DNA of 64,000 nucleotides from Candidatus Dormiibacterota bacterium (GTDB lineage Bacteria; Chloroflexota; Dormibacteria; Aeolococcales; Aeolococcaceae): the NCBI GenBank assembly GCA_963718525.1, contig OY970355.1:96001-160000 (forward strand), given 5' to 3'. Positions 38,248 to 61,442 of the stretch are shown piece after piece. Both the position numbers and the translations under genes were made by a program. The notes under the pieces were generated by a model, which was not told where the DNA came from, ran no database searches, and was given only the letters and a program-made list of their open reading frames with translations. Every line of letters begins with the position of its first letter. Position 1 is the stretch's first letter.

Positions 38248-38277
38248 CTCACGGGACACCTGCCCGAGGCGCACGTG
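38248..38277 (+). repeat. Degenerate array site (7-nt spacer)
   Basis: CTCACGGGACAC-CTGCCCG-AGGCGCACGTG. Confidence 0.4.
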
Positions 38278-38317
38278 CTTGCTTGGATCGCGGCCTCAGA
38301 CCTCGGTGTCGTGGGGC

Positions 38318-38341
38318 CTCTGGGGACATCACCCTCGCCTG
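38318..38341 (+). repeat. Array site with 5-nt spacer deletion
   Basis: CTCTGGGGACAT-C-ACCCTCGCCTG. Confidence 0.65.
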
Positions 38342-38603
38342 GGCCGGCGTCTTCTCCCAGCGCGCTTCAGAGCCCGATCCAACCTGCGCCGCCGAAGACG
38401 TAGCTCAGGAGAAGGACTACCGCGATAAAACCGAGCGGCACGGCCACAACCACCAGCCAGAACACGCGATGGCGAGCTCGACGCACGTCATGATCGGTGG
38501 GGAAGGCCACGAGGCAATGGTAGACGCCGACGTCCGCGTTGCAAGCGCGTCAGGGGTGATTGACGGACCCTGGCCTGACCTGCCCACCCCTTCCTCGGCA
38601 ATC

Positions 38604-39122
38604 TCAGGGCGCGGTCGTCACGCTCACGTTCTGGATCGAAACGCCCCACCGATCGAAGATCGGCGTGATGAGTTCACTAACGGAGCTGGCGATACGCTCC
38701 GAATCGGTCGAGCCAGCGCCCGGCGTAGCTGCCCTCACAGCAACCCGAAGCTGCTGAATGATCGCAGTAGGTAAATCTGCAACTGCCATGGCAGCAACGC
38801 GTGGATCCTCCGCCTTGCGGCTTGCCCGCACCCAGTACGTCGGTTCCGCTTCCGGTGCACTCGACACTGGCCAGTCACCCGTGTCGATCTCCGCAGGCAC
38901 GACTGCCAGGCGACCATTTGGGAGGAAGTGCCACCCGGGAGATAGAACCGCTTTTGCCGACGGCGTGATCGAACGGTGATCGGGAACGACGCCGAACCAC
39001 CCGGTCGGAACATGGCGGACCGACCATCGAAAACTCGCTTGTCTTCTTATGTCGCGAGGCGACCGCAGGCGCAGCGGAGGATGCTGAGCACGAGGTTGCT
39101 GCGGTTCAGGGGTATCGCCCAT
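38604..39122 (-). CDS. Hypothetical protein (cassette)
   Basis: ORF lying between sites 38318 and 39156. Confidence 0.5.
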   Translation of the reverse strand: MGDTPEPQQPRAQHPPLRLRSPRDIRRQASFRWSVRHVPTGWFGVVPDHRSITPSAKAVLSPGWHFLPNGRLAVVPAEIDTGDWPVSSAPEAEPTYWVRASRKAEDPRVAAMAVADLPTAIIQQLRVAVRAATPGAGSTDSERIASSVSELITPIFDRWGVSIQNVSVTTAP

Positions 39123-39155
39123 GCCGCGATGATGCATCAAGGAACAGAGATCTGC

Positions 39156-39184
39156 TCCAAGATACATTGCCGGATGCTGGCCTG
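39156..39184 (+). repeat. 29-bp array site
   Basis: TCCAAGATACAT-TGCCGG-ATGCTGGCCTG. Confidence 0.9.
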
Positions 39185-39434
39185 TTCTGGTACGCCATCG
39201 CTTGACCGCTTATGTCTTCAGGTCAACCTCCGGCGTTCACCCCGGCGCCAAGTTGGGCAGCGTCTTCGAAATCCAGTCACACGGCGCAGCCGGTCCATCA
39301 TCAGCCTGCTCGCCAATGGATTAACAGCAACGATATGCTTGACGCACCGGCCTAGGAACTCGGTGGGTGGAGCTTCTAGCAATCCGCGCCGCGCTAAAGC
39401 CGGAATTGCTCCGGAATGGGGAGTTGACCGAGAC

Positions 39435-39635
39435 CTAGTGCGTCAAGAAGCTTTCGGCCCGCTTCTTACGCCGGTGCTCGTCTAAGAAGGATAGGGGCGC
39501 TGCAATCGCGAGGCATATCCCCCCGCCAAGGAAGAGAGACCGTATCGGTTCCAAATTCCCAAAGATAACCAGCACGAGAACCGCTACGCCGAACGCACCT
39601 GCCAGTACGGACAACCCCCGGGCTATGGCTCGCAT
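39435..39635 (-). CDS. Small two-TM protein (cassette)
   Basis: 66 aa, two hydrophobic helices, basic tail. Confidence 0.55.
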   Translation of the reverse strand: MRAIARGLSVLAGAFGVAVLVLVIFGNLEPIRSLFLGGGICLAIAAPLSFLDEHRRKKRAESFLTH

Positions 39636-39958
39636 TCACACATCGTAGTCATTGGATCGTCCCCACGTCCACAGTTGTCCCTCGAACGGTGCGTCAGACC
39701 GGGGGCAAGGCTGGCGGCGCGGGAGGCGGTAGTGGTGGCGGCGGCGGGTTCGGCTTGCGCGTCGTGGCAATGGCGATCACTACCCCTACGATCGCCACGA
39801 CCACGATCACAAGCAGCAAGAAGAGGACGTAGTTCGGGGTTACTAAGGTGATCTCCGGATCCTAACCTACCGTTCCGACAACATAGGCAGGGTCATCGTA
39901 CGTAGCTACGTTACTGGCCTTCCGCTTCTCTCCATCGATGTGGACCCGACGGCATGCC

Positions 39959-39987
39959 CTCTGGGTACATTTGCCGATGCTCGCCTG
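39959..39987 (+). repeat. 29-bp array site
   Basis: CTCTGGGTACAT-TTGCCG-ATGCTCGCCTG. Confidence 0.9.
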
Positions 39988-40080
39988 CGGAACCTTTGCC
40001 TCCTTAAGCGTCTCCGAGTGGGCCAGGGCATTTACGGCGCCGAGTTGGTTGGTACTACCGTCGACCTGCCGCCCGCGCCC

Positions 40081-40660: not shown

Positions 40661-40689
40661 CTCAAGGTACATTTGCGGACACTGGCCTG
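40661..40689 (+). repeat. 29-bp array site
   Basis: CTCAAGGTACAT-TTGCGG-ACACTGGCCTG. Confidence 0.92.
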
Positions 40690-42600: not shown

Positions 42601-42629
42601 TCGTCGAGACATTCACGGATGCTCGCGCG
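42601..42629 (+). repeat. 29-bp array site
   Basis: TCGTCGAGACAT-TCACGG-ATGCTCGCGCG. Confidence 0.8.
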
Positions 42630-43191: not shown

Positions 43192-43220
43192 CTCAAGGTA
43201 CATTTGCGGATGCTGGCCTG
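43192..43220 (+). repeat. 29-bp array site (matches consensus)
   Basis: CTCAAGGTACAT-TTGCGG-ATGCTGGCCTG. Confidence 0.95.
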
Positions 43221-43252: not shown

Positions 43253-43969
43253 TCAGTCTACGGTCCAGTTCGTGCGAGACAAGTCTTGGAGTGATCCGGA
43301 CACACTATCGGCATGGGAATCCAGGGGCATTGGCTCCTCGATCGCCACGCGGATAGCCGACATTCCCAATTGTTTCGCGGGAGCGATGTCGAAGCACTCG
43401 GAGTTCCCGATCATCAGACACGCTTTGGAAGGGACCCCTGCTCGTTGCAGGGTCAGGTCGAAGAATCCTTTGCTCGGCTTGCGCCACCGAATATCGACTG
43501 ATGAGGCGACGACGTCAATTAGGCCGTCAAGCTCAAACGACCGAAAATCCGCCCAGTAATCGGCTTCGGTTCGCCAGATGGCGTTCGAGGCGATCACAAT
43601 CCTCGCGCGTCGCGCCTTGAGGACTGTTAGCAAAGCTCGTGCCCCCGGCAACAGGTGGGTAAAGGCCCTAGCCGGCAGGCAACTAGCCGAGCGGATTCTG
43701 TCAGCCTCGATGCCGGTAACGTTGGCGCAGCCCGTCGCCTCGTCAATTGCTTCCCACACATCGAAATACGAGGCGCCTACTGCTCGATCAATCACACGAT
43801 TAAGCTGCCTGCAAAGTTCGGCAGCTCGGTCCTCCGGGACACCCGCGCGGACCAAGCTTAGTCTCCATTCCGCGCTGTCTCGATCGACTGGGTTCAGCAC
43901 CGGCTGCGACCAGAGGGTTCCGCCCACGTCGACCCGTACGGCTCGCGGACCCGAGCTCGTGTCTTGCAA
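43253..43969 (-). CDS. HAD family hydrolase (cassette)
   Basis: DVGGTL motif I, WRKP, MIGNSECFDI. Confidence 0.85.
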   Translation of the reverse strand: MQDTSSGPRAVRVDVGGTLWSQPVLNPVDRDSAEWRLSLVRAGVPEDRAAELCRQLNRVIDRAVGASYFDVWEAIDEATGCANVTGIEADRIRSASCLPARAFTHLLPGARALLTVLKARRARIVIASNAIWRTEADYWADFRSFELDGLIDVVASSVDIRWRKPSKGFFDLTLQRAGVPSKACLMIGNSECFDIAPAKQLGMSAIRVAIEEPMPLDSHADSVSGSLQDLSRTNWTVD

Positions 43970-44050: not shown

Positions 44051-44079
44051 CGCCGGGTACATTCCCGGACCCTGGCCTG
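44051..44079 (+). repeat. 29-bp array site
   Basis: CGCCGGGTACAT-TCCCGG-ACCCTGGCCTG. Confidence 0.9.
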
Positions 44080-44255
44080 AGCGACGGTGGTCGGCTTGGT
44101 GGGAGGAACGGCCGGGCCCCGCTCAAGGCTCTCGGCAACACACGCGGCTCAGCGGAAACCGCTCTTCAAACCGGAACGTGATGAGCTCGATCCCAAGCCC
44201 TTCCTGAGAGTGACCGTTACCTTCTGGCCCCCTGCCGGGGTCATATGTGCAGAAC

Positions 44256-44798
44256 ATGGCAACGGACGAGCAGGAACTGCCCATGGGGAGGTCGGTCGGC
44301 GTGAGTTCCGAGGAGACCGCGAGCCACGACGAGGCGGCTTTCGAGAAGGCGCTCCTCGCCGCCCTACGACCGGCATTTCGAAGTCTCCGTGCCATCGGCC
44401 TGTCCGAAGAGGACGCTGCCGACGTACTGCAGGATGCCTCGATCCGTGCGTGGCGGCACCGCTCCCAGCGACAGGGTGACTTCGCGGCGTGGTTCATTGC
44501 CATCGCCTATCACGAGGCGCGGCGCCCGCACCGCCGCTGGCCCGCAATCCCGGTCCTATGGCAAGGAGCGAGGAGCTCATCGGAGCAGGAGTGGCGAAAC
44601 GATGACCTCGACCGCGCTCTGGCGCGGCTGCCGACGCGGCAGCGGACCGCGATCTCCCTGCGCTACGGCAGCGACCTGACGATTCTCGATGTCGCCCGCA
44701 CATTGCGCATCAGTGAGCCTGCAGCGAAGCAGTTGCTTGCTAGAGCACGCGAGTCACTCCGTCGAACGCTGTCATCGATTCCGAGAGGTGAGCCATGA
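44256..44798 (+). CDS. ECF sigma factor (cassette)
   Basis: DAADVLQDASIRAW; LARLPTRQR...DVARTLRISE. Confidence 0.88.
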   Translation: MATDEQELPMGRSVGVSSEETASHDEAAFEKALLAALRPAFRSLRAIGLSEEDAADVLQDASIRAWRHRSQRQGDFAAWFIAIAYHEARRPHRRWPAIPVLWQGARSSSEQEWRNDDLDRALARLPTRQRTAISLRYGSDLTILDVARTLRISEPAAKQLLARARESLRRTLSSIPRGEP

Positions 44799-46081
44799 GC
44801 GATGACTTCGATGTGATGTTGGGGACACTGAATTCCCGCCCCCTCACTCCGGCTGAAGAGGGCGCGCTCGCTCGGGTGGAGCTGTTCGTGTCTCGGCACG
44901 ACTTCGCGACGCCCCGACATCCGAGACTTGCGCTCGAGCTCCTCGTTGCCGGCGTCGTCGCCGCGGTGGCGATCACGTTGATCGTGGCGCTCACCCATCA
45001 TTCGGTTCCAACGCCAGCGCCCGCGGGCCACACTCCGGTGCCCATAGCCTCCGCAACCGCGAGCCCTCCCGCTCCAACGAGCCCGCGTCTGGGGCCGGCT
45101 ATTCCGTTGCGCATCACGCAGCAACTGAGCCTTGGCAGCTTCCAGGCCAACGCGATAACCGTTGGTCTGGGCAGCGTGTGGGTTGCAGCTCATAGTCCGG
45201 TATATGGGGACACGGGCAGACTTTTTCGCGTCGATGCGTCGTCGTCTCGCCAGACTGGATACTGGACGGTCGGGGGAGACCCGGAGGCGGTTTCGGCCGC
45301 CGGCAGCTACGTCTGGGTGGCCAACGGCTTCGGCGATGGTTCGCGCGTGTTGCCCGATCAGAACACGGTCATGCAGTTCAACGCTGTCACCGGAGCTCTG
45401 GTGCACGTGTATCGAATCACGAGCCCCATCGCCCTGGTGGCGAATGGAAGCGGCGTACTCGTCGTGTCCTCGCGTACGCAAAATGGTCCGACCGACATAT
45501 ATCTCCTGACCGCCGGACGGTCATCGCTCGTCGCGACCGTGGCGGGGATCTTGCAGGGTCCTTCGCTGTCGGCTGAGGCCGCACTCGCCGTCTGTGGTGG
45601 CCAGGTATACCTGGGCGTGAGCGAGCTGTCTGCGAGCGGACTTCAGACCATCAACATCTACGCGGTCCGCCTGGGCGGCGGACCTGTGCGGAGCCTCGCG
45701 ACGATTCAGCGTGCGTACTGGCCGGTGATGACATGCGATACCAACGCCCTCTACGTCTTCGATGGGGCCGGAGATCTTCCGGTGCTGGTGAGCCCTGTGG
45801 ACGGCAGGACGCGCACGATGCCCGAAGGGTCGGGCGCTTCGGCAGCCGCATTCGAATCCGGGTTCATCTGGCAATTGCACAACGCTTATGGTCCCTCGGG
45901 ATCGCAGGGATCGCAGGGATACCTGTCCGCGCTGGACCCGAACACTGGCCTGGAGTCATCGTCCCGCCTCGCGATTCCGGGCACTGCGTCGTCCGAGGTG
46001 TTCCTACTCGCCCCGGTTGCGTCCGGCTTGTGGGTCGTCGGCGGCAACGAGGCCCTGCTTCTGCACGTGACTTTCGGCTAG
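44795..46081 (+). CDS. Single-TM protein with extracytoplasmic beta-propeller, probable anti-sigma partner
   Basis: ATGA overlap with sigma gene; TM, Pro-rich linker, GSVWVA/YVWVAN repeats. Confidence 0.7.
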   Translation: MSDDFDVMLGTLNSRPLTPAEEGALARVELFVSRHDFATPRHPRLALELLVAGVVAAVAITLIVALTHHSVPTPAPAGHTPVPIASATASPPAPTSPRLGPAIPLRITQQLSLGSFQANAITVGLGSVWVAAHSPVYGDTGRLFRVDASSSRQTGYWTVGGDPEAVSAAGSYVWVANGFGDGSRVLPDQNTVMQFNAVTGALVHVYRITSPIALVANGSGVLVVSSRTQNGPTDIYLLTAGRSSLVATVAGILQGPSLSAEAALAVCGGQVYLGVSELSASGLQTINIYAVRLGGGPVRSLATIQRAYWPVMTCDTNALYVFDGAGDLPVLVSPVDGRTRTMPEGSGASAAAFESGFIWQLHNAYGPSGSQGSQGYLSALDPNTGLESSSRLAIPGTASSEVFLLAPVASGLWVVGGNEALLLHVTFG

Positions 46082-46279: not shown

Positions 46280-46308
46280 CTCGAGGTACATTCGCGGACC
46301 CTCGCCTG
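46280..46308 (+). repeat. 29-bp array site
   Basis: CTCGAGGTACAT-TCGCGG-ACCCTCGCCTG. Confidence 0.92.
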
Positions 46309-47075: not shown

Positions 47076-47645
47076 ATGGAACGCATGCGTGACCGACTTG
47101 CCCGATGGAGCCAGGCAACCATCTACCCTGACATGTGGGCTGACCCGAATGACGATCCCCGCAGCAGCGAAGGAGTCGGTGGCGACGGCGAGCTAGCGAC
47201 GCTGCAGGACTACCTGACGAGGTACCGGATGACCCTGCGGATGAAGTGCGAGGGCCTCTCTCCGGAACAACTGGCCCGTCGGTCGGTTCCGCCGTCGACG
47301 ATGTCGCTGCTGGGGCTGCTCCGCCACCTCACCGAAGTGGAACGGGATTGGCGCAACTGGATCAGCGACGGCGATTCGCTACCGAAGCTGTACGGCGAGC
47401 GGGACGCGGACTTCGAGGGTGCTGTTGCCGAACAGGCGGAGGTCGATGCTGCATACTCCGCTCTCGCGCGCGAGCAGGCCGGGACCGACGCCGTGCTGGC
47501 CCGACACCTGGATCTCAGCGAGCGTCTGGGGAAGGACGGAATCGCCGTTCGCGAGCTGATGGTGCACAGGATCGAGGAGTACGCCCGTCACTGCGGGCAC
47601 GCCGACCTCTTGCGCGAGTGTATCGACGGAAGGGTCGGCCAGTGA
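47076..47645 (+). CDS. DinB/DUF664 family protein
   Basis: STMSLLGLLRHLTEVERDW, EEYARHCGHADLLRECIDG. Confidence 0.9.
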   Translation: MERMRDRLARWSQATIYPDMWADPNDDPRSSEGVGGDGELATLQDYLTRYRMTLRMKCEGLSPEQLARRSVPPSTMSLLGLLRHLTEVERDWRNWISDGDSLPKLYGERDADFEGAVAEQAEVDAAYSALAREQAGTDAVLARHLDLSERLGKDGIAVRELMVHRIEEYARHCGHADLLRECIDGRVGQ

Positions 47646-48439: not shown

Positions 48440-48468
48440 CTCCAGCGACATGAGCGAATGCTCGCTTG
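48440..48468 (+). repeat. 29-bp array site
   Basis: CTCCAGCGACAT-GAGCGA-ATGCTCGCTTG. Confidence 0.8.
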
Positions 48469-50602: not shown

Positions 50603-50857
50603 GTGCGGCATGCAACGCAGGAAGACCTTGATCAGGTCGAGCCACTACTGGTGGAGCTCCGCAAGCTTCCCCAGTTGCGAGAGCGCAAGCGTGGTTCCTT
50701 CTCGAGGGGCTCCCGGCCGTTTCTTCACTTCCACGAAGACGGCGGCGAGCTTTACGTCGACGTGAGACTCGACGGCGCGTTCCGTCGCGCGAAAGTCACC
50801 AGCGGCAAGGACCAGGCCGATCTCCTCGCACGTGTGCGCGGGGAGCCACTGGAGTGA
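50603..50857 (+). CDS. Small conserved hypothetical protein
   Basis: LRERKRGSF...FLHFHED..LYVDVRL. Confidence 0.65.
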   Translation: MRHATQEDLDQVEPLLVELRKLPQLRERKRGSFSRGSRPFLHFHEDGGELYVDVRLDGAFRRAKVTSGKDQADLLARVRGEPLE

Positions 50858-50869
50858 TATCACTGACCG

Positions 50870-51859
50870 ATGGTGGCCGAAACGATGACCGGTGTCCGTG
50901 AAGAGCAACCATCCGGCAAGCCCCCGGCACTGATTGTCGACCACCTCACCAAACGCTTCGGCGACCGCATCGCGTTCGACGACGTTTCGTTCTCTGTGGC
51001 ACAGGGCGAGGTGTTCGGGTTCCTGGGACCCAACGGGGCCGGGAAGACGACCACGGTTCGCACCCTGGGGACGCTGATCGCACCAACGTCGGGCTCGGCG
51101 AGTGTCGCCGGCATTCCGTTGACCTCGGACAACGGGCCGGAGATCCGCCAGCGCATTGCGATCATGCCGGAAAACCCGGGCCTGTACCGGCGTCTCACGG
51201 TGATGGAGAACCTCCAACTCTTTGCCGGTCTCTACGAGCAGCACAACGCGGCTGCTCGGATCGGCGAGGCACTCGAAGCGGTCAACCTGACAGCGCGTGC
51301 ACACGATCTGTGCGGAAGTCTTTCCAAGGGACTGCTGCAACGGGTTGGACTGGCTCGGGCGTTGCTCAACGACCCTGCGGTCATGTTTCTCGACGAGCCA
51401 ACGTCCGGGTTGGATCCCGTCGCGACGCGTGAGGTGAACGACCTCATCAACGGACTCCGCCAGCGCGGGGTCACGGTGTTCCTCACCACCCACCGCCTCG
51501 AGGAGGCGGAGCGGCTGTGTGACCGCGTCGCGATCCTCAACACCACGCTCCGCCTGGTGGGGCGGCCCGACGAGCTCCGTGAGCGGCTTTTCAGCCGCTC
51601 GCTGGTTGTCGAGACGTTACATCCGCTCGGCGCGCCAGATGACGTCTTCAACAGCACCGACGGCGTCGAGAGCTGGCGAACCGATGGACCGAGCAGTTAT
51701 GTGCTGAGTGTCACCGATCCAAGGAAGATCGCCCCGCAGGTGGCCCGAGCACTCGTTGCCGCGGGTGCCGACGTGGTCTCGATCAGCGAGTCGCGTCACT
51801 CCCTCGAGGATGTCTACCTGCAGTTGATCGACGACGACCCGGAGGCATCACCTCGATGA
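50870..51859 (+). CDS. ABC transporter ATP-binding protein
   Basis: GPNGAGKTT, LSKG, FLDEPTSG. Confidence 0.93.
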   Translation: MVAETMTGVREEQPSGKPPALIVDHLTKRFGDRIAFDDVSFSVAQGEVFGFLGPNGAGKTTTVRTLGTLIAPTSGSASVAGIPLTSDNGPEIRQRIAIMPENPGLYRRLTVMENLQLFAGLYEQHNAAARIGEALEAVNLTARAHDLCGSLSKGLLQRVGLARALLNDPAVMFLDEPTSGLDPVATREVNDLINGLRQRGVTVFLTTHRLEEAERLCDRVAILNTTLRLVGRPDELRERLFSRSLVVETLHPLGAPDDVFNSTDGVESWRTDGPSSYVLSVTDPRKIAPQVARALVAAGADVVSISESRHSLEDVYLQLIDDDPEASPR

Positions 51860-52677
51860 AGTTCAGCTTCAGACGTCTGGGGGCGGTGCTGCGCAAAGAG
51901 CTCCGAGAATACCGGCGCAGCCCCTTCATCCTCGTGACCATGGCGGTGCTCCCGCTCGTGTTTCTTATCGAACCCTTGTTGACCATCTTTCGCATCGGCC
52001 CGTTGGTCGCGGCTAGTACGGTGGATAAGGCCGTCAGCGCCACGTTTCTCGTACTGCTGATTGCGCCTGCTTTGCTGCCCGCTGTCATTGCCTCGTACTC
52101 CGTGGTCGGCGAGCGCGAGCAAGGCACCCTCGAACCCCTGTTGACCACCCCGCTGCGTCGCGAGGAGCTGCTGCTGGGCAAGGCGATCGGCGTGGTTGTT
52201 CCCGCGGTCGGTATCGCCTATGTGCTCTTCGCGATCATCCAAATCTGCGCCCAACTCTTCGCGAGCAATCCGGAAGTGGTGTCAGCTCTGGGACAAGGCC
52301 CACATATCGCGGCGGAGATTCTCTTCGCACCGCTGCTGGCGGGTTGGTCGATCTGGGTGGGCATCGGCATCTCGACGCGAGCGAGCGACGTTCGTGTCGC
52401 GCAGCAGTTGGGGACGTTGTCGAGCCTGCCGCCGCTCGCGGTCGTGGCCTTGGTGTCCTTCAACGTCTTCACTCCGAGCGTCACGCTCGCGGTGGTGTTC
52501 GCGCTTGTCCTCTTCGCGGCCGACGTCATTCTGTTTCGCTTCGTCGCGGCCCTGTTCGATCGCGAGCGGCTCATCACCGGCGCGTCGGCGCATCGAGGGC
52601 CGAGCGGCGGCGGTCAGGGCCCACCCTCCGGTGCGGTTCGACGGATACCACGCATGACAGGTAGCGGCGATGGGTGA
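51856..52677 (+). CDS. ABC transporter permease
   Basis: VGEREQGTLEPLLTTP motif, 6 TMs. Confidence 0.9.
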   Translation: MKFSFRRLGAVLRKELREYRRSPFILVTMAVLPLVFLIEPLLTIFRIGPLVAASTVDKAVSATFLVLLIAPALLPAVIASYSVVGEREQGTLEPLLTTPLRREELLLGKAIGVVVPAVGIAYVLFAIIQICAQLFASNPEVVSALGQGPHIAAEILFAPLLAGWSIWVGIGISTRASDVRVAQQLGTLSSLPPLAVVALVSFNVFTPSVTLAVVFALVLFAADVILFRFVAALFDRERLITGASAHRGPSGGGQGPPSGAVRRIPRMTGSGDG

Positions 52678-53198
52678 CGGCACCGGTGATCCTGCCCAAG
52701 ATCCGCGATCCGCGGTTCATCACAGTGCGTCGCGGCGGGATCCTCCAAGATGACGATCATCGCCTTCTCGCGATATGGGCGGCTGACTGCGCGGAGCATG
52801 TGCTGAAGCACTTCGAGCAGGCACGACCGAAGGACGATCGTCCGCGGCGGGCGATCGTCCTCGGGCGTGCCTGGGCGCGGGGTGAGATCACGTGGCAAGA
52901 GGCCCGCACCGCGGCTGGTCACGCAAACGCCGCGGCCAGGAAGCTGAGTGGTACAGCACGGTATGCCGCGTACGCTGCCGGCCAGGCCGCTGCGGTGGGC
53001 CATGTCGCAGCCCACGAACTCGGAGCCGCGGCGTACGCGATCAGGGCGGCGCGAGCGGCCGCGACTGACGACGACCGCGTCGAGGCAGGCCGTTTGGAGT
53101 GCCAGTGGCAGCGCGCTCGACTCCCCGACGAGATCCGAGAACTTGTGCTTGACGACCAGCGGCTGCGCAACGAGTTGTGCTGGTTTGCCTTCGACTGA
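52674..53198 (+). CDS. Imm-5-like putative immunity protein
   Basis: WAADCAEHVL..FE..P.DDRPR, AGQAAAVGHVAAH. Confidence 0.8.
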   Translation: MTAPVILPKIRDPRFITVRRGGILQDDDHRLLAIWAADCAEHVLKHFEQARPKDDRPRRAIVLGRAWARGEITWQEARTAAGHANAAARKLSGTARYAAYAAGQAAAVGHVAAHELGAAAYAIRAARAAATDDDRVEAGRLECQWQRARLPDEIRELVLDDQRLRNELCWFAFD

Positions 53199-53478
53199 CA
53201 CGGCGTTGGCGGGGCGCGTGTCGCGGGTTTGTGGAGAGAATGCTCGCCTGGGCAGGCGCTTTCTTGTTAGAGGCTCTCGATTCGGGTCGGACCGCATCAC
53301 CGATGCGGACGCCCGCCAGGATCGCGACCGTCTGCAGGTCCGACGGCTAGCGCTCCCAGCACCTCCTGACCTGGGTACAGTAGCGACCACTCGGAGCCTC
53401 GGGCATTGCCAAACCATCCCGCGACAGGGCAGATGACATCAGGCGGAGCCACACCATGGAGCACCATTTCGTATCACC

Positions 53479-54174
53479 GTGTTGATGGCGCTACTGGACG
53501 ACGCAGCATATCGCGCCCGTCGCGGACGATACTCAGACGCTGTAATTCAAGCGCAGGGCGCACGGATAGCTAAGGCCAACTCCCCCAAACTCAAAAAACT
53601 GTTGCCGGCGGATATCCTTTTCTTCCACACAAGGCCGTCTGTCGTAAGTTGGATGGTCATGTATGTCACGGGCAGCATCTGGAGCCATACGGCTATGTAT
53701 GTCGGCGATGAACTCGTGACCGATGCGACCTCTATCGGCGTAAGGAGGCATCCTCTGGCAGATTATTTCAACGGAGAGTCGTCTTTCTCTGCGCGTCGGC
53801 CTCCCTTCTCTGAAGGAGGCGCAGAACGTGCAGTGGATGCCATGAACTCAAAGATCGGCAAGCCCTACGGGTGGACCATGGTGCTACTGATCGGATGGCA
53901 ATCCATTGTAGGTGCGCGGCGAGAATTCGATGGGCGGCATGCGGTCGACGTGCTCTTCTCGCTTGCTGTCTTATCCGTCCCGGCGGCCTTATGGCGACCC
54001 TGGGCTTCCATCACCGGGCTCATCGCAACGTTGTATCTAGTTACGCTTGCCCGAAACCGCGCTGCCTGGCTCGCCGTTCGGAAGGAAACGTCATCCGATT
54101 CCAACTCCCGGCCCGTTCCCGTTGTATTGCCTCGGTATACCCGGCGGTGGAAGCAGCGTGCTCAGCGTGGATAG
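53479..54174 (+). CDS. Permuted papain-like (YiiX/YebB-like) domain with C-terminal TMs (cassette)
   Basis: PADILF, WSHTAMYVG, KIGKPY; catalytic Cys region not evident. Confidence 0.6.
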   Translation: MLMALLDDAAYRARRGRYSDAVIQAQGARIAKANSPKLKKLLPADILFFHTRPSVVSWMVMYVTGSIWSHTAMYVGDELVTDATSIGVRRHPLADYFNGESSFSARRPPFSEGGAERAVDAMNSKIGKPYGWTMVLLIGWQSIVGARREFDGRHAVDVLFSLAVLSVPAALWRPWASITGLIATLYLVTLARNRAAWLAVRKETSSDSNSRPVPVVLPRYTRRWKQRAQRG

Positions 54175-54184: not shown

Positions 54185-54214
54185 GTCAAAGTACATTTCC
54201 GGATACTTGGCCTG
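54185..54214 (+). repeat. Array site (1-nt insertion)
   Basis: GTCAAAGTACAT-TTCCGG-ATACTTGGCCTG. Confidence 0.85.
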
Positions 54215-54326: not shown

Positions 54327-54719
54327 CTAGCCCCGAGGTGCGAAGAACTCGAGTGCGATGTTGTCGGGGTCTCGAAATGACAATGCCGAGTAGGAAGGTG
54401 CGTCCACGATGCCACCGTTGGGGATGCCGAGCTCGTTCAGGCGGATTTCCCACACTTCTAACTCATCGCGGTTGGTACAGCCGAAAGCCAGATGATCGAG
54501 ACCCGGCCGGCGCTCGTTGAACGGCTGAGTGCTGTTCAAATCAGGGAACTGAGTTAGACCGACGAGTGTGCCGCTCGTAAGCCAAGCGACACGCTGGAAA
54601 GGACCTGTGTCCTCGTCAAGGATCGGGTCCGAGCCGAACAGGGCCTTGTACCAAGGCACACTCCGTTCGAGGCTCGTAACCGTTAGCGCCACGTGAGTAA
54701 TCGCAGGGAACTCTGGCAT
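54327..54719 (-). CDS. VOC/glyoxalase family protein (cassette)
   Basis: ITHVALTV, GLDHLAF, FRDPDNIALE. Confidence 0.92.
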   Translation of the reverse strand: MPEFPAITHVALTVTSLERSVPWYKALFGSDPILDEDTGPFQRVAWLTSGTLVGLTQFPDLNSTQPFNERRPGLDHLAFGCTNRDELEVWEIRLNELGIPNGGIVDAPSYSALSFRDPDNIALEFFAPRG

Positions 54720-54951: not shown

Positions 54952-54980
54952 CTCGGGTGACATTAACGAACCCTGCCATG
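54952..54980 (+). repeat. 29-bp array site (diverged)
   Basis: CTCGGGTGACAT-TAACGA-ACCCTGCCATG. Confidence 0.7.
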
Positions 54981-55046: not shown

Positions 55047-55565
55047 ATGGAGCCTGGTACCGGCGACGTCGTGGTGAGGCGGATACGTCCTGAGGATTGG
55101 GCGGTCACGCGATCCCTCCGTTTGCGCGCCCTCGCCGACGCCCCGTATGCCTTCGCCAGAACCTACCAGGAGGAGTCAGTGCGGCCGGATGCTTTCTGGA
55201 TCGATCGGGCGGTCGTCGCATGCACGGGCAAGAGCATCGCCACTTTCCTAGCGTTCGATGGTCACGAGCCAGCCGGAATCACGACGGGAATAGTGGACGA
55301 TGGCGGCCAGCCGCAACTCGTCTCTATGTGGGTCGATCCCGTTTTGCGCGGTCGCCGCCTCGGCGAATCGTTAGTCAACGCGGTAGTTCAGTGGGCGCTC
55401 GACGGTGGGTTCGAGCAACTCTCACTTTGGGTGAGCGAGGACAACGGTCCCGCAATCCGTCTGTACCAACGGGCGGGCTTCCAATCCACCGACCGGACAG
55501 ATGCGCTCCGACCGGGCTCAGAGGTCCGGATCAGGATGTGGGTGCGCCATCTCAACGCCGTCTGA
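55047..55565 (+). CDS. GNAT N-acetyltransferase (cassette)
   Basis: SMWVDPVLRGRRLG, NGPAIRLYQRAGF. Confidence 0.92.
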   Translation: MEPGTGDVVVRRIRPEDWAVTRSLRLRALADAPYAFARTYQEESVRPDAFWIDRAVVACTGKSIATFLAFDGHEPAGITTGIVDDGGQPQLVSMWVDPVLRGRRLGESLVNAVVQWALDGGFEQLSLWVSEDNGPAIRLYQRAGFQSTDRTDALRPGSEVRIRMWVRHLNAV

Positions 55566-55602: not shown

Positions 55603-55631
55603 CTCTGGCGACATTGGCGGACCCTGGCCTG
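55603..55631 (+). repeat. 29-bp array site
   Basis: CTCTGGCGACAT-TGGCGG-ACCCTGGCCTG. Confidence 0.92.
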
Positions 55632-55730: not shown

Positions 55731-56177
55731 ATGGCTGCGAGACTACGCTCCGTGTCCTCCACATGTCGGCCCTACCGGCTCAGCGACGCCGAAGCCCTCC
55801 TGTCGCTCTGGGCTCTTTGCGGGCTCACGCGCCCGTGGAATGATCCGTATCGGGACATCGAGCGCAAGATCGGGGTCGACCCCAACGGCCTTCTAGTGCT
55901 TGAGGATGGCAGTCGATTGGTCGGCGCCGTCATGGTCGGTTATGACGGCCATCGCGGATGGATCAACTACCTGGCGGTACATCCGGATCATCGCCGGTGT
56001 GGGTTGGGCAGTGTCCTTATGGCGGCCGCCGAGCAGCGGCTGGCAGAGCTCGGCTGCCCGAAAGTGAATCTGCAGGTTCGTGCCTCTAACCAGGAAGCGG
56101 TGGCCTTCTATCGCCGCATTGGCTACAGCGTGGATGACGTAGTGAGTATGGGACGACGTCTCGAGAACGACAGCTGA
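55731..56177 (+). CDS. GNAT acetyltransferase, YpeA-like (cassette)
   Basis: LTRPWNDP, GYDGHRGWINYLAV, GCPKVNLQVR. Confidence 0.9.
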   Translation: MAARLRSVSSTCRPYRLSDAEALLSLWALCGLTRPWNDPYRDIERKIGVDPNGLLVLEDGSRLVGAVMVGYDGHRGWINYLAVHPDHRRCGLGSVLMAAAEQRLAELGCPKVNLQVRASNQEAVAFYRRIGYSVDDVVSMGRRLENDS

Positions 56178-56190
56178 GACGGCGCACCGG

Positions 56191-56219
56191 CTCAAGGGAC
56201 ATTCGCAGACCCTGGCGTG
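56191..56219 (+). repeat. 29-bp array site
   Basis: CTCAAGGGACAT-TCGCAG-ACCCTGGCGTG. Confidence 0.92.
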
Positions 56220-56619: not shown

Positions 56620-56648
56620 CTCAAGGTGGCTTTGCGGATATTGGCGTG
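56620..56648 (+). repeat. 29-bp array site (diverged core)
   Basis: CTCAAGGTGGCT-TTGCGG-ATATTGGCGTG. Confidence 0.8.
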
Positions 56649-57226: not shown

Positions 57227-57255
57227 CTCGAGGTACATTCGCGGATGCTCGCATG
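57227..57255 (+). repeat. 29-bp array site
   Basis: CTCGAGGTACAT-TCGCGG-ATGCTCGCATG. Confidence 0.92.
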
Positions 57256-57298
57256 CGCAAGAGCCTTCCGCGTTCGGTGGAAAACAACGCTCCTACGA

Positions 57299-58014: not shown

Positions 58015-58043
58015 TTCCGGGTACATTTGCGGATACTCGCCTG
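58015..58043 (+). repeat. 29-bp array site
   Basis: TTCCGGGTACAT-TTGCGG-ATACTCGCCTG. Confidence 0.92.
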
Positions 58044-58408: not shown

Positions 58409-58437
58409 CTCTGGGAACCTTGGCGGATGCTGGCATG
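58409..58437 (+). repeat. 29-bp array site
   Basis: CTCTGGGAACCT-TGGCGG-ATGCTGGCATG. Confidence 0.88.
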
Positions 58438-58779: not shown

Positions 58780-58808
58780 TGAACGAGACACTGGCGGATG
58801 CTCGCGCG
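58780..58808 (+). repeat. 29-bp array site
   Basis: TGAACGAGACAC-TGGCGG-ATGCTCGCGCG; begins 3 nt after a stop codon. Confidence 0.8.
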
Positions 58809-58930: not shown

Positions 58931-59326
58931 ATGACGCTGCGTAAGCTCAATCCCTCTGCACTGCCGACCCCTACCGGCTATTCACAGGTTGTCGTGGCAG
59001 CCGGCTCCCGAACGGTCTTCATCGCCGGACAGGTGGCGCTCGATCGAGACGGCGGACTTGTCGCACCCGGGGACGTCGTCGGCCAGGCTCGCCAAGCGTT
59101 CGCGAATATGCGAATTGCGATCGAGGCAGCCGGAGCGGCAATCGACGATGTGACCAAGATAACCTGGTACGTGGTCGGCTACCGGCCGGAGTGGCTTCCC
59201 GAGCTGGCGGCCGCCCGCAATGAGGTGCTCGGCGGGCATATGCCAGCGAGCACATTGGTGGGTGTAGGCGCTCTCGCCCAGGACCACTTTCTCGTTGAGG
59301 TCGAAGCGGTAGCTGTGATCGACTAG
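58931..59326 (+). CDS. RidA family protein (cassette)
   Basis: GYSQVV, FIAGQVA, PASTLVGV, VEVEAVA. Confidence 0.92.
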   Translation: MTLRKLNPSALPTPTGYSQVVVAAGSRTVFIAGQVALDRDGGLVAPGDVVGQARQAFANMRIAIEAAGAAIDDVTKITWYVVGYRPEWLPELAAARNEVLGGHMPASTLVGVGALAQDHFLVEVEAVAVID

Positions 59327-59429: not shown

Positions 59430-59458
59430 CTCCAGCGACATTGGCGGATGCTCGCGTG
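59430..59458 (+). repeat. 29-bp array site
   Basis: CTCCAGCGACAT-TGGCGG-ATGCTCGCGTG. Confidence 0.92.
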
Positions 59459-59637
59459 TCCGCCCAACTTCTGCCTGCGGAGGTGAAATGTTGCCCTGCC
59501 AGGCGCGGGTAATAGCCTGACGGCGACAGCAGCGTGCACGCGCCCGATGGGCGAAAATGCGCCCGGGTCCGAGCTACTGAACCTCCGGCGAGGCCGTCCA
59601 GTTTCACTGACGACACCGGGCTGCCCCAGTCCTAGTC

Positions 59638-60129
59638 TCAACTCGCGGTTTCGTTGGTGGCGACTGCCCGAGCGAGCTGCCCGAGATGCTCTTGCTCATG
59701 CGACGCCATGTCGCCGGCGAGTCGCAACATCGACACCTCGCCAAAGTCCGTCTGGACGGAAGACGTCCACTCGTGGTTGGAGAGTCCGAGCAGGAGACCG
59801 ACCAGTTCGCGGCGCCGCAGAGTGAAGGCTCGGACCTGATCAGCCGCCGACAGGCCAGCCCTGGCCAGCAAGTCGCCGTATGTGCGCTCGTCCAGTCCGA
59901 GATGGACACCGTCGGGGCGTATCAGCCAGTTCCAAATCCGAGACGCAACGATCAGATCACTAGCGCGGACGTGCCTGAGGACTTCCAGCGGCGACCAGTC
60001 ATCGGGAGCTGGGCGACGACCGAACTCGGCCTCACCTAAGTGGGAAAGGGCAGCTTCGAATTGCTGGGGGCTTTCCGCCAGGATGGCGATACAGCCCTCG
60101 ACCGCATGCGACTCTGGCTCAGACCTCAC
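59638..60129 (-). CDS. DinB family protein (cassette)
   Basis: PAPDDWSPLEVLRH, HEQEHLGQL. Confidence 0.85.
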   Translation of the reverse strand: MRSEPESHAVEGCIAILAESPQQFEAALSHLGEAEFGRRPAPDDWSPLEVLRHVRASDLIVASRIWNWLIRPDGVHLGLDERTYGDLLARAGLSAADQVRAFTLRRRELVGLLLGLSNHEWTSSVQTDFGEVSMLRLAGDMASHEQEHLGQLARAVATNETAS

Positions 60130-60202
60130 TCGCTGATTCTGTCTGATCTTCTGCTATCAAAGATGGAACGCCGGATACGCCGCGGCCCGAAAACGTACCC
60201 GC

Positions 60203-60231
60203 CTCTGGGGACATTGGTGGATGCTGGCATG
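60203..60231 (+). repeat. 29-bp array site
   Basis: CTCTGGGGACAT-TGGTGG-ATGCTGGCATG. Confidence 0.9.
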
Positions 60232-60381
60232 GGCGAGCGACCCGGAGATTGAACTCCGCCATCGCTGCGATCTTTCGCTGCCGCCACCGGAGACGGGATC
60301 GCGGTCGCGACGCGATAGCGGGGATGCAACACTTCAAGTGGGGCCGCATGGTTACGAGCGCGGCCGAACTAAGCTGGCGGG

Positions 60382-60861
60382 ATGGCCGAAGAGCGACCAG
60401 GTCGGCTGACCGCGCTTCGACGCGGTCTTCACCGCCTAACGCGGGAGCATCCAGCGGCGTGGGCCGGGCTCGGGATCACGTGCCTTGCTGGCCTGGTGAT
60501 CGTGGCAGCCTTCCCCGGCGCCTCTTCGGGTTCAAAACGCGTCAACCCTAAGGTTTCACTCCCGCCGGGTATGGGCGCCGTAGTCGGTGGCATCGAAGCG
60601 TGCTATGACAGCGGTCCTCCACCGGGCGGCTACCCGTGGGTGGCGGGTTCGGTTGCTCTGTATGCCGCGGGGGACCGCGATTTCCTCAAGCCAATCGCAA
60701 TTGGTACCGCAGCACCCAACGCAGATTTCGTCGTGCTGGCTTCGCCTGGTGACTACGAACTCGCGGCCTACGCGGGCCTTTCCAACCCGGCGGTCTCAGT
60801 GACTGTGCGGAGCGGGAACATTACCTTCCAAGATCTTCGCTCGAATGGTGGATGCATCTGA
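60382..60861 (+). CDS. Membrane-anchored protein with carboxypeptidase-regulatory-like domain (cassette)
   Basis: TM; GAVVGGIEAC, SPGDYEL, VTVRSG, terminal Cys. Confidence 0.65.
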   Translation: MAEERPGRLTALRRGLHRLTREHPAAWAGLGITCLAGLVIVAAFPGASSGSKRVNPKVSLPPGMGAVVGGIEACYDSGPPPGGYPWVAGSVALYAAGDRDFLKPIAIGTAAPNADFVVLASPGDYELAAYAGLSNPAVSVTVRSGNITFQDLRSNGGCI

Positions 60862-60869
60862 GTTCGTGG

Positions 60870-60898
60870 CTCAAGGGACATCGGCGGATGCTGGCGTG
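60870..60898 (+). repeat. 29-bp array site
   Basis: CTCAAGGGACAT-CGGCGG-ATGCTGGCGTG. Confidence 0.92.
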
Positions 60899-61044
60899 CG
60901 CTGCGATCATCGTGTTTGGCCTCGATGCTGGTTCCTAAGCGCGGCCTCGTACACGCTTCCGACTGGAATCACCGTTGCTGCTACGGATCGCGTTCAGCCC
61001 CGCGTGGTTCGCGCTGGGGACCAGGCCCGAGCTAGCATCGACCC

Positions 61045-61308
61045 ATGGGCACACTCGCGAACATTCTTCGGGTAGCGTCCGTGCCGGTGGGTGTCTTGAT
61101 TGGTCTGTGGACCGCGCACCTTACAAGCCTTCCGAGCAGCTACCGATGCCCAGTTGACGCTTTCTGCCTCCCCTTGAATTTCTATTTGAGGCCCACCTTC
61201 GCGATGTGGCAATGCGTCTTGTTCGGTGCAGGCGCTGCTGCCGTCTTGCTCCTAATGTCCTTTGCGGTGGCGCGCTTGCCGAGCGCAAGGCCGCTCACCG
61301 CGGCCTGA
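61045..61308 (+). CDS. Small two-TM protein with Cys loop (family member 3)
   Basis: VASVPVGVLIGLWTA...CPVDAFC...FAMWQC. Confidence 0.7.
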   Translation: MGTLANILRVASVPVGVLIGLWTAHLTSLPSSYRCPVDAFCLPLNFYLRPTFAMWQCVLFGAGAAAVLLLMSFAVARLPSARPLTAA

Positions 61309-61413
61309 AGGCGTTATCCGTCGCCTCGTCTCGTCCAAACAGCCCAACTCCGTCTCGTCCAGCCACCTTGAGTGCGTTCATCTCTGCGGCATAGAACGGC
61401 TGGCCGACGTTGG

Positions 61414-61442
61414 CTCAAGATACATTCGCGGACCCTGGCTTG
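61414..61442 (+). repeat. 29-bp array site
   Basis: CTCAAGATACAT-TCGCGG-ACCCTGGCTTG. Confidence 0.92.

What the first reader, a model, noticed from the sequence alone, without database searches (positions are those of the whole stretch)
38248..61442. Integron-like gene-cassette array punctuated by a novel 29-bp direct-repeat site
Seen: 23 copies of CTCAAGGTACAT-TNSCGG-ATGCTGGCCTG (starts 39156, 39959, 40661, 41097, 42601, 43192, 44051, 46280, 48440, 49996, 54185, 54952, 55603, 56191, 56620, 57227, 58015, 58409, 58780, 59430, 60203, 60870, 61414). All lie on the same strand and between genes, mostly 0.4-1 kb apart. They usually bracket one gene or one small operon, and I found no convincing copy in the first 38 kb. 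Known: the cargo (GNAT, VOC, DinB, RidA, HAD, NTF2, lipoproteins, orphans) is typical of integron cassettes. However, attC sites are longer hairpins with RYYYAAC/GTTRRRY ends and cassette genes are usually co-oriented, whereas genes here face both ways. Inference: a site-specific recombinase adds or excises circular single-gene cassettes at this site, forming a cassette platform distinct from integrons.
Basis: partly seen in the sequence, partly recalled or inferred. Interest (0 to 1): 0.95.

Follow-up and report, generated by a model that had tools for sequence, protein, structure and literature searches.

The report
Serine-recombinase gene-cassette array in Dormibacterota
A soil bacterium of the candidate phylum Dormibacterota carries a long row of small swappable gene cassettes, each ending in the same 29-base site, and that site looks like the docking site of a large serine recombinase rather than an integron site.

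Summary
One copy at 38549 was missed, and the array runs on to window 72312: 31 same-strand copies in 34 kb.

The sites bound mobile cassettes. Homologous cassettes sit next to different neighbours in other species. The whole 29-mer travels with the upstream cassette, and the neighbour changes right after its terminal TG.

It is not an integron. No genome of the genus has an IntI, the site has no AAC/GTT triplets and no hairpin covariation, and genes face both ways.

In relatives, one clade of large serine recombinase (LSR), paired with a rolling-circle Rep gene, sits beside such arrays. Its start codon abuts an inverted variant of the site. Read on the array strand, that variant is a short arm, TG, then a long arm (attL-like). 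Array sites are a long arm, TG, then a short arm (attR-like). The outer motif lies about 5 bp closer to the centre in short arms.

The window's genome lacks this LSR, so its arrays are orphans. How arrays grow is inferred, not shown. SCC tandem cassettes are the closest known system. I rate it a new variant of a known kind.

The parts
36801..37877 (+). Conserved left-flank gene (HHH_8 + PHP domains); homology to all genus genomes stops at its stop codon
   Evidence: Pfam; DNA search
38318..38342 (+). Upstream-most site of the array. It has short-arm (B-type) spacing: outer block, 1 base, inner arm, then TG
   Evidence: Read by eye. It did not pass the thresholds of the scan. Four arrays in relatives begin with such a site in that scan (two read)
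38549..38577 (+).
39156..39184 (+). 29-bp site
39959..39987 (+). 29-bp site
40661..40689 (+). 29-bp site; ends a cassette shared at 89% with G021:C94
41097..41125 (+). 29-bp site
42601..42629 (+). 29-bp site
43192..43220 (+). 29-bp site, exact consensus
43253..43969 (-). HAD hydrolase cassette gene
   Evidence: Pfam
44051..44079 (+). 29-bp site
44247..46081 (+). ECF sigma factor gene and the following 428-aa gene. This is a core-like block; in G050 it lies directly beside the ABC block with no site between
   Evidence: Pfam
46280..46308 (+). 29-bp site
47076..47645 (+). Mycothiol-S-transferase/DinB family gene
   Evidence: Pfam
48440..48468 (+). 29-bp site
50012..50611 (-). SnoaL-like gene
   Evidence: Pfam
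50870..53198 (+). ABC transporter ATPase, ABC-2 permease and Imm5-like gene. These are core-like genes embedded in the array
   Evidence: Pfam
53222..53250 (+). Degenerate short-arm-like site that opens the second array segment
   Evidence: By eye only
53479..54174 (+). ORF with a sub-threshold Pfam hit to the C92 permuted papain-like amidase family (25.2 bits, cut-off 27)
   Evidence: Pfam
54185..54213 (+). 29-bp site with a one-base insertion
54327..54719 (-). VOC/glyoxalase cassette gene
   Evidence: Pfam
54952..54980 (+). 29-bp site. A rare variant of it is shared by four genomes with four different downstream neighbours
55047..55565 (+). GNAT cassette gene
   Evidence: Pfam
55603..55631 (+). 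29-bp site
55731..56177 (+). GNAT cassette gene
   Evidence: Pfam
56191..56219 (+). 29-bp site
56620..56648 (+). 29-bp site
57227..57255 (+). 29-bp site
58015..58043 (+). 29-bp site
58409..58437 (+). 29-bp site
58780..58808 (+). 29-bp site
58931..59326 (+). RidA (L-PSP) cassette gene
   Evidence: Pfam
59430..59458 (+). 29-bp site
59638..60129 (-). DinB_2 cassette gene
   Evidence: Pfam
60203..60231 (+). 29-bp site
60870..60898 (+). 29-bp site
61414..61442 (+). 29-bp site; last copy in the window. The array goes on to 72312
61455..62219 (+). Diphthamide-synthase-family gene in a 6.1-kb inter-site stretch
   Evidence: Pfam

Best explanation
The 29-bp repeats are attachment sites of a large serine recombinase (LSR). 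Each array site is a long, well conserved left half-site, then a central TG where exchange takes place, then a short degenerate right half-site that belongs to the next cassette. That layout is attR-like. In relatives, a 2.55-kb driver module holding an LSR gene and a rolling-circle Rep gene sits at the upstream end of such arrays. It is preceded by the mirror site: a short arm, TG, then an inverted long arm, which is attL-like. Recombination between that attL-like site and any downstream array site would excise the module together with a variable number of cassettes as a circle. Re-integration at a short-TG-short site beside another array would then reshuffle cassettes and carry arrays to new loci. 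The window's genome has the arrays but not the driver, so its arrays are orphans. They are either relics or are moved in trans. Shown: the sites, the cassette boundaries, the reshuffling among species, the linkage of this LSR clade to arrays, and the two half-site spacings. Inferred: that this LSR acts on these sites, and the scheme by which arrays grow.
For: 1. Clustering. 36 of the 39 genome hits of 20 bits or more lie in two arrays, all on one strand.

2. Taxonomic range. The motif is in 21 of 24 same-genus genomes as same-strand clusters, with 0 to 70 copies each. Across 301 genomes of the phylum, counts well above the 0-2 of the reversed-pattern control occur only in family f1.

3. Mobile cassettes. 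Cassette-sized blocks match other species at 85-99% identity on scattered contigs, whereas core-like genes are mostly 72-88% identical.

4. Boundary position. In 24 right-boundary and 22 left-boundary families of homologous cassettes with unrelated neighbours, motif positions 1-20 follow the upstream cassette: mismatches run at 0.11-0.45 of background. Positions from 30 on follow the downstream cassette. The switch falls in the last 8 bp.

5. Accessory locus. The interval from the PHP gene through Imm5 to TetR is about 5 kb and free of the motif in G010, and 35.7 kb in G000.

6. Enrichment of LSR genes. LSR homologues occur in 6 of 80 motif-centred loci (567 kb). About 0.5 would be expected from G000's three serine-recombinase genes in 3.34 Mb.

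7. Clade-specific linkage. 11 of 11 loci where the start region of the close LSR clade (at least 56% identity to the L093 LSR, including one frameshifted copy) could be read show a variant site abutting the start codon on the opposite strand. In the 7 of these read in full, the central dinucleotide is CA there, which is TG on the array strand. 8 of the 9 loci with more than 1.3 kb of sequence beyond the LSR have array sites downstream on the LSR strand; L216 shows none. The 10 more distant LSR loci fetched, plus G000's own two LSRs, show no variant site.

8. Bracketed module. In L093 and L052 the module lies between an attL-like and an attR-like site 2.6-2.7 kb apart.

9. Domains. The LSR has Resolvase, Recombinase and Zn_ribbon_recom domains. 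ORF2 is a rolling-circle Rep.

10. Half-site spacing. The outer motif lies 6 nt from the inner arm in 26 of 27 G000 sites and about 1 nt from it in the LSR-proximal sites. Short-spacing sites are also the upstream-most site of 4 arrays in relatives, and by eye of G000's array.

11. Right arm. The conserved positions of the right arm agree, by eye, with an inverted short arm as seen.
Against: G000 is a single 3.34-Mb contig and has neither this LSR clade (its own LSRs are 43-47% identical) nor the variant site.

Full-length matches of at least 56% identity to this LSR are in 5 of the 42 genus genomes. Broken or partial matches add up to 3 more. Many array-bearing genomes show no LSR at all. G004 has 41 copies of the site at 86% completeness and no PF00239 hit.

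Canonical serine integrases do not recombine two attR-type sites. A row of attR-like sites therefore needs the variable-endpoint scheme, which is inference.

Motif positions 24 and 27 show intermediate linkage to both neighbours (ratios 0.67 and 0.68 at the right boundary, 0.82 and 0.53 at the left). A 2-bp crossover does not predict this, and it would fit a 6-8-bp overlap of a tyrosine recombinase.

No circle or empty site was seen in reads, because only assembled contigs were available.

The B-type call for G000's own boundary site is by eye; it failed the scan thresholds.

The rule that the zinc-ribbon motif sits about 5 bp further out in attP than in attB is recalled, not taken from a call.
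Confidence: 0.62

Rival explanations
1. A tyrosine recombinase acting in trans moves the cassettes, with a 6-8-bp overlap region at the 3' end of the motif. Candidates are the lineage's Xer-like enzyme or one of its patchy Xer-like paralogues. The LSR module would merely be another element that likes to insert at these sites.
For: Positions 24 and 27 are partly linked to both neighbours, as expected for markers inside an overlap region. One Xer-like recombinase is present at 89-92% identity in 5 of 6 well assembled array-bearing genomes and at 63% in the sixth. Phage-type tyrosine integrases lie 1-7 kb from several small clusters. rAID-1 arrays in Bacteroidales pair an XerD-family recombinase with repeated intergenic sequences (passages read).
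Against: No tyrosine recombinase is conserved beside arrays: 12 arrays share no flank gene. The 1501k and 175k Xer-like families are found in 28 and 26 of 71 family genomes and do not track the motif. They are present in genus g12, whose one genome in the motif scan (G288) had no copy, and absent from array-bearing G021 and G023. Tyrosine recombinases are not enriched in motif-centred loci: 3 of 80, with about 2 expected. The variant site abuts the LSR start, not a tyrosine recombinase gene.
Confidence: 0.15
2. It is a divergent integron cassette array without its integrase (a CALIN), and the 29-mer is part of unusual attC sites.
For: The array has 0.4-1-kb cassettes with typical integron cargo and lower G+C than the genome (63.1% against 66.3%). 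CALIN elements are common, and half of them lie in genomes without IntI (passages read).
Against: No match to TIGR02249 above its cut-off in 0 of 42 genus genomes. There is no conserved AAC or GTT triplet at the boundary. There is no conserved sequence upstream that could be R''/L''. There is no Watson-Crick covariation between any two columns of 126 sites and no shared hairpin. Genes face both ways. The IntegronFinder covariance model itself could not be run.
Confidence: 0.03
3. The motif is a regulatory or structural DNA site such as an operator or terminator. The cassette pattern would arise from homologous recombination between its copies.
For: All copies are intergenic. In genes on the - strand the site lies 60-100 nt upstream of the start codon. 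Contigs from the same study suggest alternative adjacencies between array members (compared by eye).
Against: Exchange points are confined to the last 8 of 29 conserved bases instead of being spread over the motif. The motif is nearly absent outside arrays. Its orientation is uniform while gene orientation is mixed. No Rfam family matches.
Confidence: 0.06
4. Each cassette is a non-autonomous transposable element with one conserved end, moved by a HUH or other transposase that inserts next to an existing copy.
For: A HUH rolling-circle Rep gene is part of the array-linked module. One-ended rolling-circle elements are known to capture neighbouring genes (recalled).
Against: No subterminal hairpins and no covariation. 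The palindromic core with an invariant central dinucleotide and two half-site spacings fits serine-integrase sites.
Confidence: 0.05

Closest known systems
SCC elements and their tandem cassettes in staphylococci (Ccr large serine recombinases)
   Same: In both systems a large serine recombinase is proposed to act. Several att sites lie in direct orientation and delimit neighbouring cassettes. Cassettes without their own recombinase can be excised in many combinations by the enzyme of a neighbour (passages of PMC11470126 read).
   Different: Here the cassettes are mostly single genes (median 676 bp in 279 cassettes). Arrays reach 30-70 sites and lie at different chromosomal loci rather than one conserved gene end. 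The driver is a 2.55-kb LSR plus rolling-circle Rep module, and the host is Dormibacterota. Relatedness of the LSR to Ccr was not tested.
Integrons and CALIN arrays
   Same: Both are rows of small, mostly single-gene cassettes of accessory function, each ending in a recombination site, all sites in one orientation, shuffled between genomes. Arrays without a nearby recombinase are common.
   Different: There is no IntI, no attC hairpin and no AAC/GTT triplets. The site is a double-strand imperfect palindrome around TG. Gene orientation is mixed and the arrays are not tied to one locus.
Serine-integrase prophage or element attachment sites (attP, attB, attL, attR)
   Same: Both have a conserved non-palindromic central dinucleotide, inverted half-sites, and long and short half-site types with a shifted outer motif. 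The recombinase gene lies next to its site, with an attL-like and an attR-like site bracketing the module.
   Different: There are many attR-like sites in a row behind one attL-like site, and orphan rows without any recombinase. The ~5-bp attP/attB rule is recalled knowledge.
rAID-1 clusters of Bacteroidales
   Same: Both are integron-like arrays of small orphan genes with repeated intergenic sequences and skewed G+C, outside the integron family. One cargo gene here is Imm5-like.
   Different: rAID-1 has a conserved XerD-family tyrosine recombinase at the head of each cluster. Here no tyrosine recombinase is linked, and the cargo is not mainly immunity genes.
pdif modules of Acinetobacter plasmids (XerC/XerD)
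   Same: Both are small gene modules bounded by short recombination sites without their own recombinase. (The pdif features are recalled; the paper PMC9771954 was seen only in a search listing.)
   Different: pdif sites alternate in orientation and have 11-6-11 dif geometry. Here all sites share one orientation, and no canonical dif-like core exists in the genome.

Membership tests
Integron | Integron integrase (IntI) with its specific extra domain | tested here: not met
   TIGR02249 (cut-off 265 bits): best match in G000 40 bits. 0 of 42 genus genomes over the cut-off; the best is a 110-bit fragment in G047 on a contig without the motif.
Integron | attC with conserved AAC and GTT triplets in the R boxes, crossover in GTT | tested here: not met
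   The boundary lies after ...TG, and the next bases have the consensus sGCsAG. No conserved AAC or GTT column in 126 sites. The definition is taken from passages read.
Integron | attC folds as a hairpin (R and L boxes paired, variable loop of 20-100 nt) | tested here: not met
   No shared fold in 39 sites. Mirror positions pair no more often than in shuffles. The top mutual-information pairs are neighbouring columns only.
Integron | Match to IntegronFinder's attC covariance model | not testable with these tools
   The model is not in Rfam and the program was not on hand. Rfam gave no hit on the sites.
Large serine recombinase attachment-site system | Recombinase with Resolvase, Recombinase and zinc-ribbon domains encoded next to its site | tested here: inconclusive
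   Met in relatives: 11 of 11 readable loci of the close clade. Not met in the window's genome, which lacks both the clade and the variant site.
Large serine recombinase attachment-site system | Conserved non-palindromic central dinucleotide flanked by imperfect inverted half-sites | tested here: met
   TG at positions 28-29 carries 2.0 and 1.5 bits. The right-arm consensus mirrors the inner left arm about the 28/29 axis. CA in 7 of 7 variant sites.
Large serine recombinase attachment-site system | Two half-site types with the outer motif shifted by about 5 bp (attP type and attB type) | tested here: met
   Gap of 6 in 26 of 27 G000 sites and gap of about 1 in LSR-proximal and array-opening sites. 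The rule itself is recalled.
Large serine recombinase attachment-site system | The enzyme recombines the sites | not testable with these tools
   Needs an assay.
SCC (staphylococcal cassette chromosome) | Integration at the 3' end of one conserved gene (rlmH/orfX) | tested here: not met
   Arrays lie at different loci. 12 arrays share no flank gene, and the G000 locus is empty in G010.
rAID-1 | XerD-family tyrosine recombinase at the head of the cluster | tested here: not met
   No tyrosine recombinase conserved beside arrays.
REP/BIME-type dispersed repeats | Spread through the genome, palindromic units | tested here: not met
   36 of 39 strong hits lie in two clusters.

The most novel reading that the evidence does not exclude
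This is a second, independently evolved gene-capture platform of the integron kind, built on a large serine recombinase and a rolling-circle mini-replicon instead of a tyrosine integrase and folded attC sites. It stockpiles and exchanges single-gene cassettes across a whole family of the uncultured phylum Dormibacterota. The head of the array is mobile and the rows it leaves behind persist as orphans.
Probability: 0.45. Interest if true: 0.9.

Novelty: new variant of a known kind. Interest (0 to 1): 0.8.

Why it matters
Integrons are the textbook way in which bacteria collect single genes as cassettes. The only widely known serine-recombinase cassette system (SCC) moves large islands at one locus in staphylococci and relatives.

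A serine-recombinase system that handles integron-sized cassettes in rows of 30-70 would show that this way of organising accessory genes evolved more than once and with different chemistry. It would also give a handle on gene flow in an abundant, uncultured soil and peat phylum.

Tools that look only for IntI and attC would miss it. The 29-bp site and the LSR clade give simple markers to find more of it. The LSR with its compact, well defined sites could be tested as a genome-engineering recombinase.

My literature searches found no description of it: Dormibacter with integron or gene cassette; integron-like arrays; attC, CALIN and Chloroflexi; large serine recombinase, rolling circle, tandem cassette. 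These cover only the open library. Supplementary files were not seen.

Tried and rejected
A hairpin or attC model was rejected.

The tyrosine integrase at G000 2205410-2206408, 1.1 kb from a lone site, was followed up. It sits beside what reads by eye as the 3' end of a tRNA or tmRNA gene (no tRNA scan was run). Its orthologues are in 8 of 42 genomes and are not near arrays, so it is an ordinary integrase.

I searched for a dif-like site. A regex for the canonical dif core found none. A constructed perfect palindrome of the inner arms found only array sites and an unrelated palindrome.

I looked for a conserved gene beside 12 arrays and found none.

The Xer-like paralogues 1501k and 175k were tested as candidates. 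Their distribution does not follow the motif.

An ORF upstream of the G004:C3 array with a weak recombinase hit shows only an AP2 domain below cut-off.

The G047:C82 IntI-like fragment lies on a contig without the motif.

A viral-contig scan for the motif gave 0 stretches. Rfam gave no family on the sites.

Sequencing runs were available only as Logan contigs from one study, and one run may be the source sample. All 30 bins of the stretch were covered in all four runs. One joint, 44079 to 58020, has only 24 letters on its short side. Several loose ends begin at or next to sites. By eye, two of them equal the sequence upstream of other sites printed: the run-up to the site at 43192 joined to 58020, and the run-up to the site at 41097 joined to 59431. 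This hints at other adjacencies in the population. It cannot show circles, and I give it no weight.

My simple codon-usage gene finder works poorly inside the array. Gene calls there rest on Pfam hits only, and many cassette ORFs had no hit.

Claims that rest on unpublished genomes: that genus g13 has a multi-copy array rests on G328. G027, G202, G230 and G391 contribute only single or no hits to tallies.

Full report
**The observation**

The strict consensus with up to three mismatches finds only 6 copies in the window, against none in 100 shuffles. A weight matrix built from the copies and iterated over the whole genome gives 23 hits of at least 22 bits in the window, all on the + strand.

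49996 is not. 54185 carries a one-base insertion. A copy at 38549 was missed. The window is genome 96001-160000 of a single 3.34-Mb contig.

The array runs on to window 72312, making 31 copies in 34 kb. A second cluster of 5 copies lies at 2.75 Mb, and three singles lie elsewhere. The array has lower G+C than the genome, 63.1% against 66.3%.

Pfam confirms the cargo and shows genes on both strands. On the - strand: HAD, VOC, DinB_2, SnoaL and FG-GAP. On the + strand: two GNAT, RidA, an MST/DinB gene, two ECF sigma factors, an ABC transporter, Imm5-like, a diphthamide-synthase-like gene and a methyltransferase. An ORF at 53479-54174 has only a sub-threshold hit to the C92 amidase family.

**Who carries it**

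Record titles of public contigs holding the motif name Candidatus Dormibacterota MAGs from soil and peat. A few single matches fall in other taxa.

The motif is in 21 of 24 genomes of the same genus as same-strand clusters, with 0 to 70 copies per genome. In the sister family it appears as single hits in 2 of 16 genomes.

In a draw of 301 genomes of the phylum, counts well above the 0-2 of the reversed-pattern control occur only in the window's family: this genus, G176, and the unpublished G328.

**The sites bound mobile cassettes**

A DNA search with 20 kb of the array returns cassette-sized blocks at 85-99% identity on scattered contigs of other species. Core-like genes embedded in the array are mostly 72-88% identical. 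Block ends coincide with the motif.

I collected 279 distinct cassettes from all arrays at hand. Their median length is 676 bp. Among them are 24 families in which homologous cassettes have unrelated downstream neighbours, and 22 families with unrelated upstream neighbours.

At the downstream end, the variable motif positions 1-20 differ at only 0.11-0.45 of the background rate. Positions from 30 on differ at the background rate. At the upstream end the pattern is reversed.

So the whole 29-mer belongs to the cassette on its left, and the next cassette starts right after the terminal TG. Exchange is confined to the last 8 bases. That argues for site-specific recombination and against homologous recombination across the repeat.

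Positions 24 and 27 are intermediate on both sides. I cannot explain this under a 2-bp crossover.

**The locus is accessory**

The PHP-domain gene left of the array is conserved in all 42 genus genomes, and homology stops at its stop codon. In G010 the interval from this gene through the Imm5-like gene to the TetR gene is about 5 kb and free of the motif. In G000 it is 35.7 kb.

In G050 the ECF-sigma block and the ABC block are neighbours with no site between them. Twelve arrays from six genomes share no flanking gene.

**Not an integron**

No genome of the genus has a match to the integron-integrase model above its cut-off. The defining attC features, as described in the IntegronFinder paper (passages read), are R and L boxes, AAC/GTT triplets, a hairpin and a variable loop of 20-100 nt.

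None of them is found:
- There is no conserved sequence upstream of the 29-mer.
- There is no shared fold.
- Mirror positions show no excess of pairing.
- Covariation appears only between neighbouring columns.

I could not run the attC covariance model itself.

**The site as double-strand DNA**

After the TG the next cassette begins with a weak consensus. This consensus mirrors the inner 10-11 bases of the motif about an axis between positions 28 and 29.

**The recombinase lead**

G000 has 11 tyrosine-recombinase hits and 3 serine-recombinase genes. None lies in or beside the arrays.

The tyrosine candidates did not hold up:
- The integrase near the lone site at 2.2 Mb sits next to what reads by eye as a tRNA-like 3' end and is patchy in the genus.
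- One Xer-like enzyme is present in all six well assembled genomes examined and is presumably housekeeping.
- Two Xer-like paralogues do not track the motif.

I then scanned the 80 motif-centred public loci and my array regions with G000's recombinases as queries. Large serine recombinase (LSR) homologues turned up in 6 of the 80 loci and beside one G010 array. Tyrosine recombinases were not enriched.

A clade of close LSRs has a variant of the site abutting its start codon on the opposite strand in every locus where the start could be read. The clade is defined as at least 56% identity to the L093 LSR, and includes one frameshifted copy. That is 11 of 11 loci: L093, L052, L080, G010:C13, L200, L201, L211, L213, L217, L218 and L220. 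L223 repeats L213 at a contig end. L216 shows a broken gene with a more divergent left arm.

The LSR is followed by a rolling-circle Rep gene in most of these loci, forming a 2.55-kb conserved module. 8 of the 9 loci with more than 1.3 kb of sequence beyond the LSR have ordinary array sites downstream on the LSR strand. L216 shows none.

More distant LSRs, including G000's own two at 43-47% identity, have no such site. Full-length matches of at least 56% identity are in only 5 of the 42 genus genomes. Broken or partial matches add up to 3 more.

**Half-site logic**

In its own orientation the LSR-proximal site shares the outer 17 bases with the array motif. Its central dinucleotide is CA in the 7 sites read in full (7 of 7), and a well conserved inverted inner arm follows.

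On the array strand it therefore reads: inner arm, TG, inverted long arm. Its left arm still carries the outer motif, but 4-5 bases closer to the centre (by eye).

A scan that scores the outer and inner blocks with a free gap finds a gap of 6 in 26 of 27 G000 sites. It finds a gap of about 1 at LSR-proximal sites. It also finds a gap of about 1 at the upstream-most site of four arrays that lack an LSR: G004:C3, G004:C1, G008:C1 and the second part of G016:C12.

G000's own first site, at 38318-38342, has the same short spacing by eye but failed the scan's inner-arm threshold.

As far as I recall, long and short half-sites with a shifted outer motif are what distinguish attP-type from attB-type half-sites of serine integrases. 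On that reading the array sites are attR-like, the LSR-proximal sites are attL-like, and array-opening sites without an LSR are attB-like.

**Mechanism proposed**

Recombination between the attL-like site and any downstream attR-like site would excise the LSR-Rep module with a variable number of cassettes. The circle would carry a long-TG-long site, and a short-TG-short site would be left in front of the remaining cassettes.

Integration of such a circle at a short-TG-short site, possibly in front of another residual array, would place its cassettes upstream of the resident ones. This reproduces the observed boundary rule, the uniform orientation, the different loci and the orphan arrays. It is an inference.

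It does not explain how a new gene first acquires a long arm. Canonical serine integrases would need a directionality factor for the excision step.

**Comparison and novelty**

The closest known system in mechanism is SCC with its tandem cassettes. There, Ccr large serine recombinases excise neighbouring cassettes, including ones without ccr, in all combinations (passages read).

The closest in form are integrons and CALINs and the rAID-1 arrays of Bacteroidales, which have an XerD-family recombinase.

Compared with SCC, this system differs in cassette size, array length, lack of a fixed locus, the LSR-Rep driver and the host phylum. My searches of the open library found no description of it. 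I rate it a new variant of a known kind, with a fair chance of being a distinct gene-capture platform.

Noticed in passing
G000 genome 2204306-2206408 (outside the window; locus L014): A lone, high-scoring copy of the site (38 bits, - strand) lies 1.1 kb from a 332-aa tyrosine integrase. The integrase sits beside what reads by eye as the 3' end of a tRNA or tmRNA gene (no tRNA scan was run). This looks like an ordinary integrated element next to a single stray cassette site.
   Followed up: partly
window 63812-64000, continuing to 65719 (- strand; locus L141:2812-4719): A 635-aa ORF with the strongest coding signal in the array region has no Pfam match. It lies in a 6.1-kb stretch between two sites.
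   Followed up: partly
window 35145-36779 (+): A 544-aa ORF just left of the conserved PHP gene has no Pfam match.
   Followed up: no
window 57697-57744 (+): Sub-threshold Rfam hit to the Glutamine-II riboswitch (26.2 bits, gathering score 33), inside a cassette with an unassigned 197-aa ORF on the other strand.
   Followed up: no
window 52674-53198 (+): The Imm5-like gene is found at 80-90% identity in many genus genomes, with flanks that differ between genomes. In several genomes it lies right beside the PHP gene, which is 14.8 kb away in G000.
   Followed up: partly
G000 genome 2395519-2396568 (locus L195:3519-4568): This is the only strongly XerC/XerD-like recombinase. It is 89-92% identical in four of five other well assembled genomes (63% in G008) and has a conserved nucleotidyltransferase-like gene upstream. 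No canonical dif core (ATAA-N6-TTAT) exists anywhere in the genome, so chromosome dimer resolution here may use an unusual site.
   Followed up: partly
G365 and other family genomes: A fast-evolving Xer-like recombinase family (G000 copies at 1500788 and 175403) is patchy and multi-copy, with up to 6 matches in one genome. This suggests another mobile element family.
   Followed up: no
L093 about 3370-3400 on the reverse-complement strand; also L080 and G010:C13: The conserved LSR-Rep module ends in a short palindrome with two GTCGAC units. This is a candidate double-strand origin for the rolling-circle Rep.
   Followed up: no
G047:C82 (locus L028:1-756, - strand): A tyrosine recombinase fragment scoring 110 bits against the integron-integrase model lies at a contig end. 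It has no cassette site on the contig. It is possibly another mobile element or a binning stray.
   Followed up: partly
window 37905-38212: The stretch between the PHP gene and the first site matches other genus genomes at about 80%, at places unlinked to their PHP gene. It too behaves as a movable unit.
   Followed up: no
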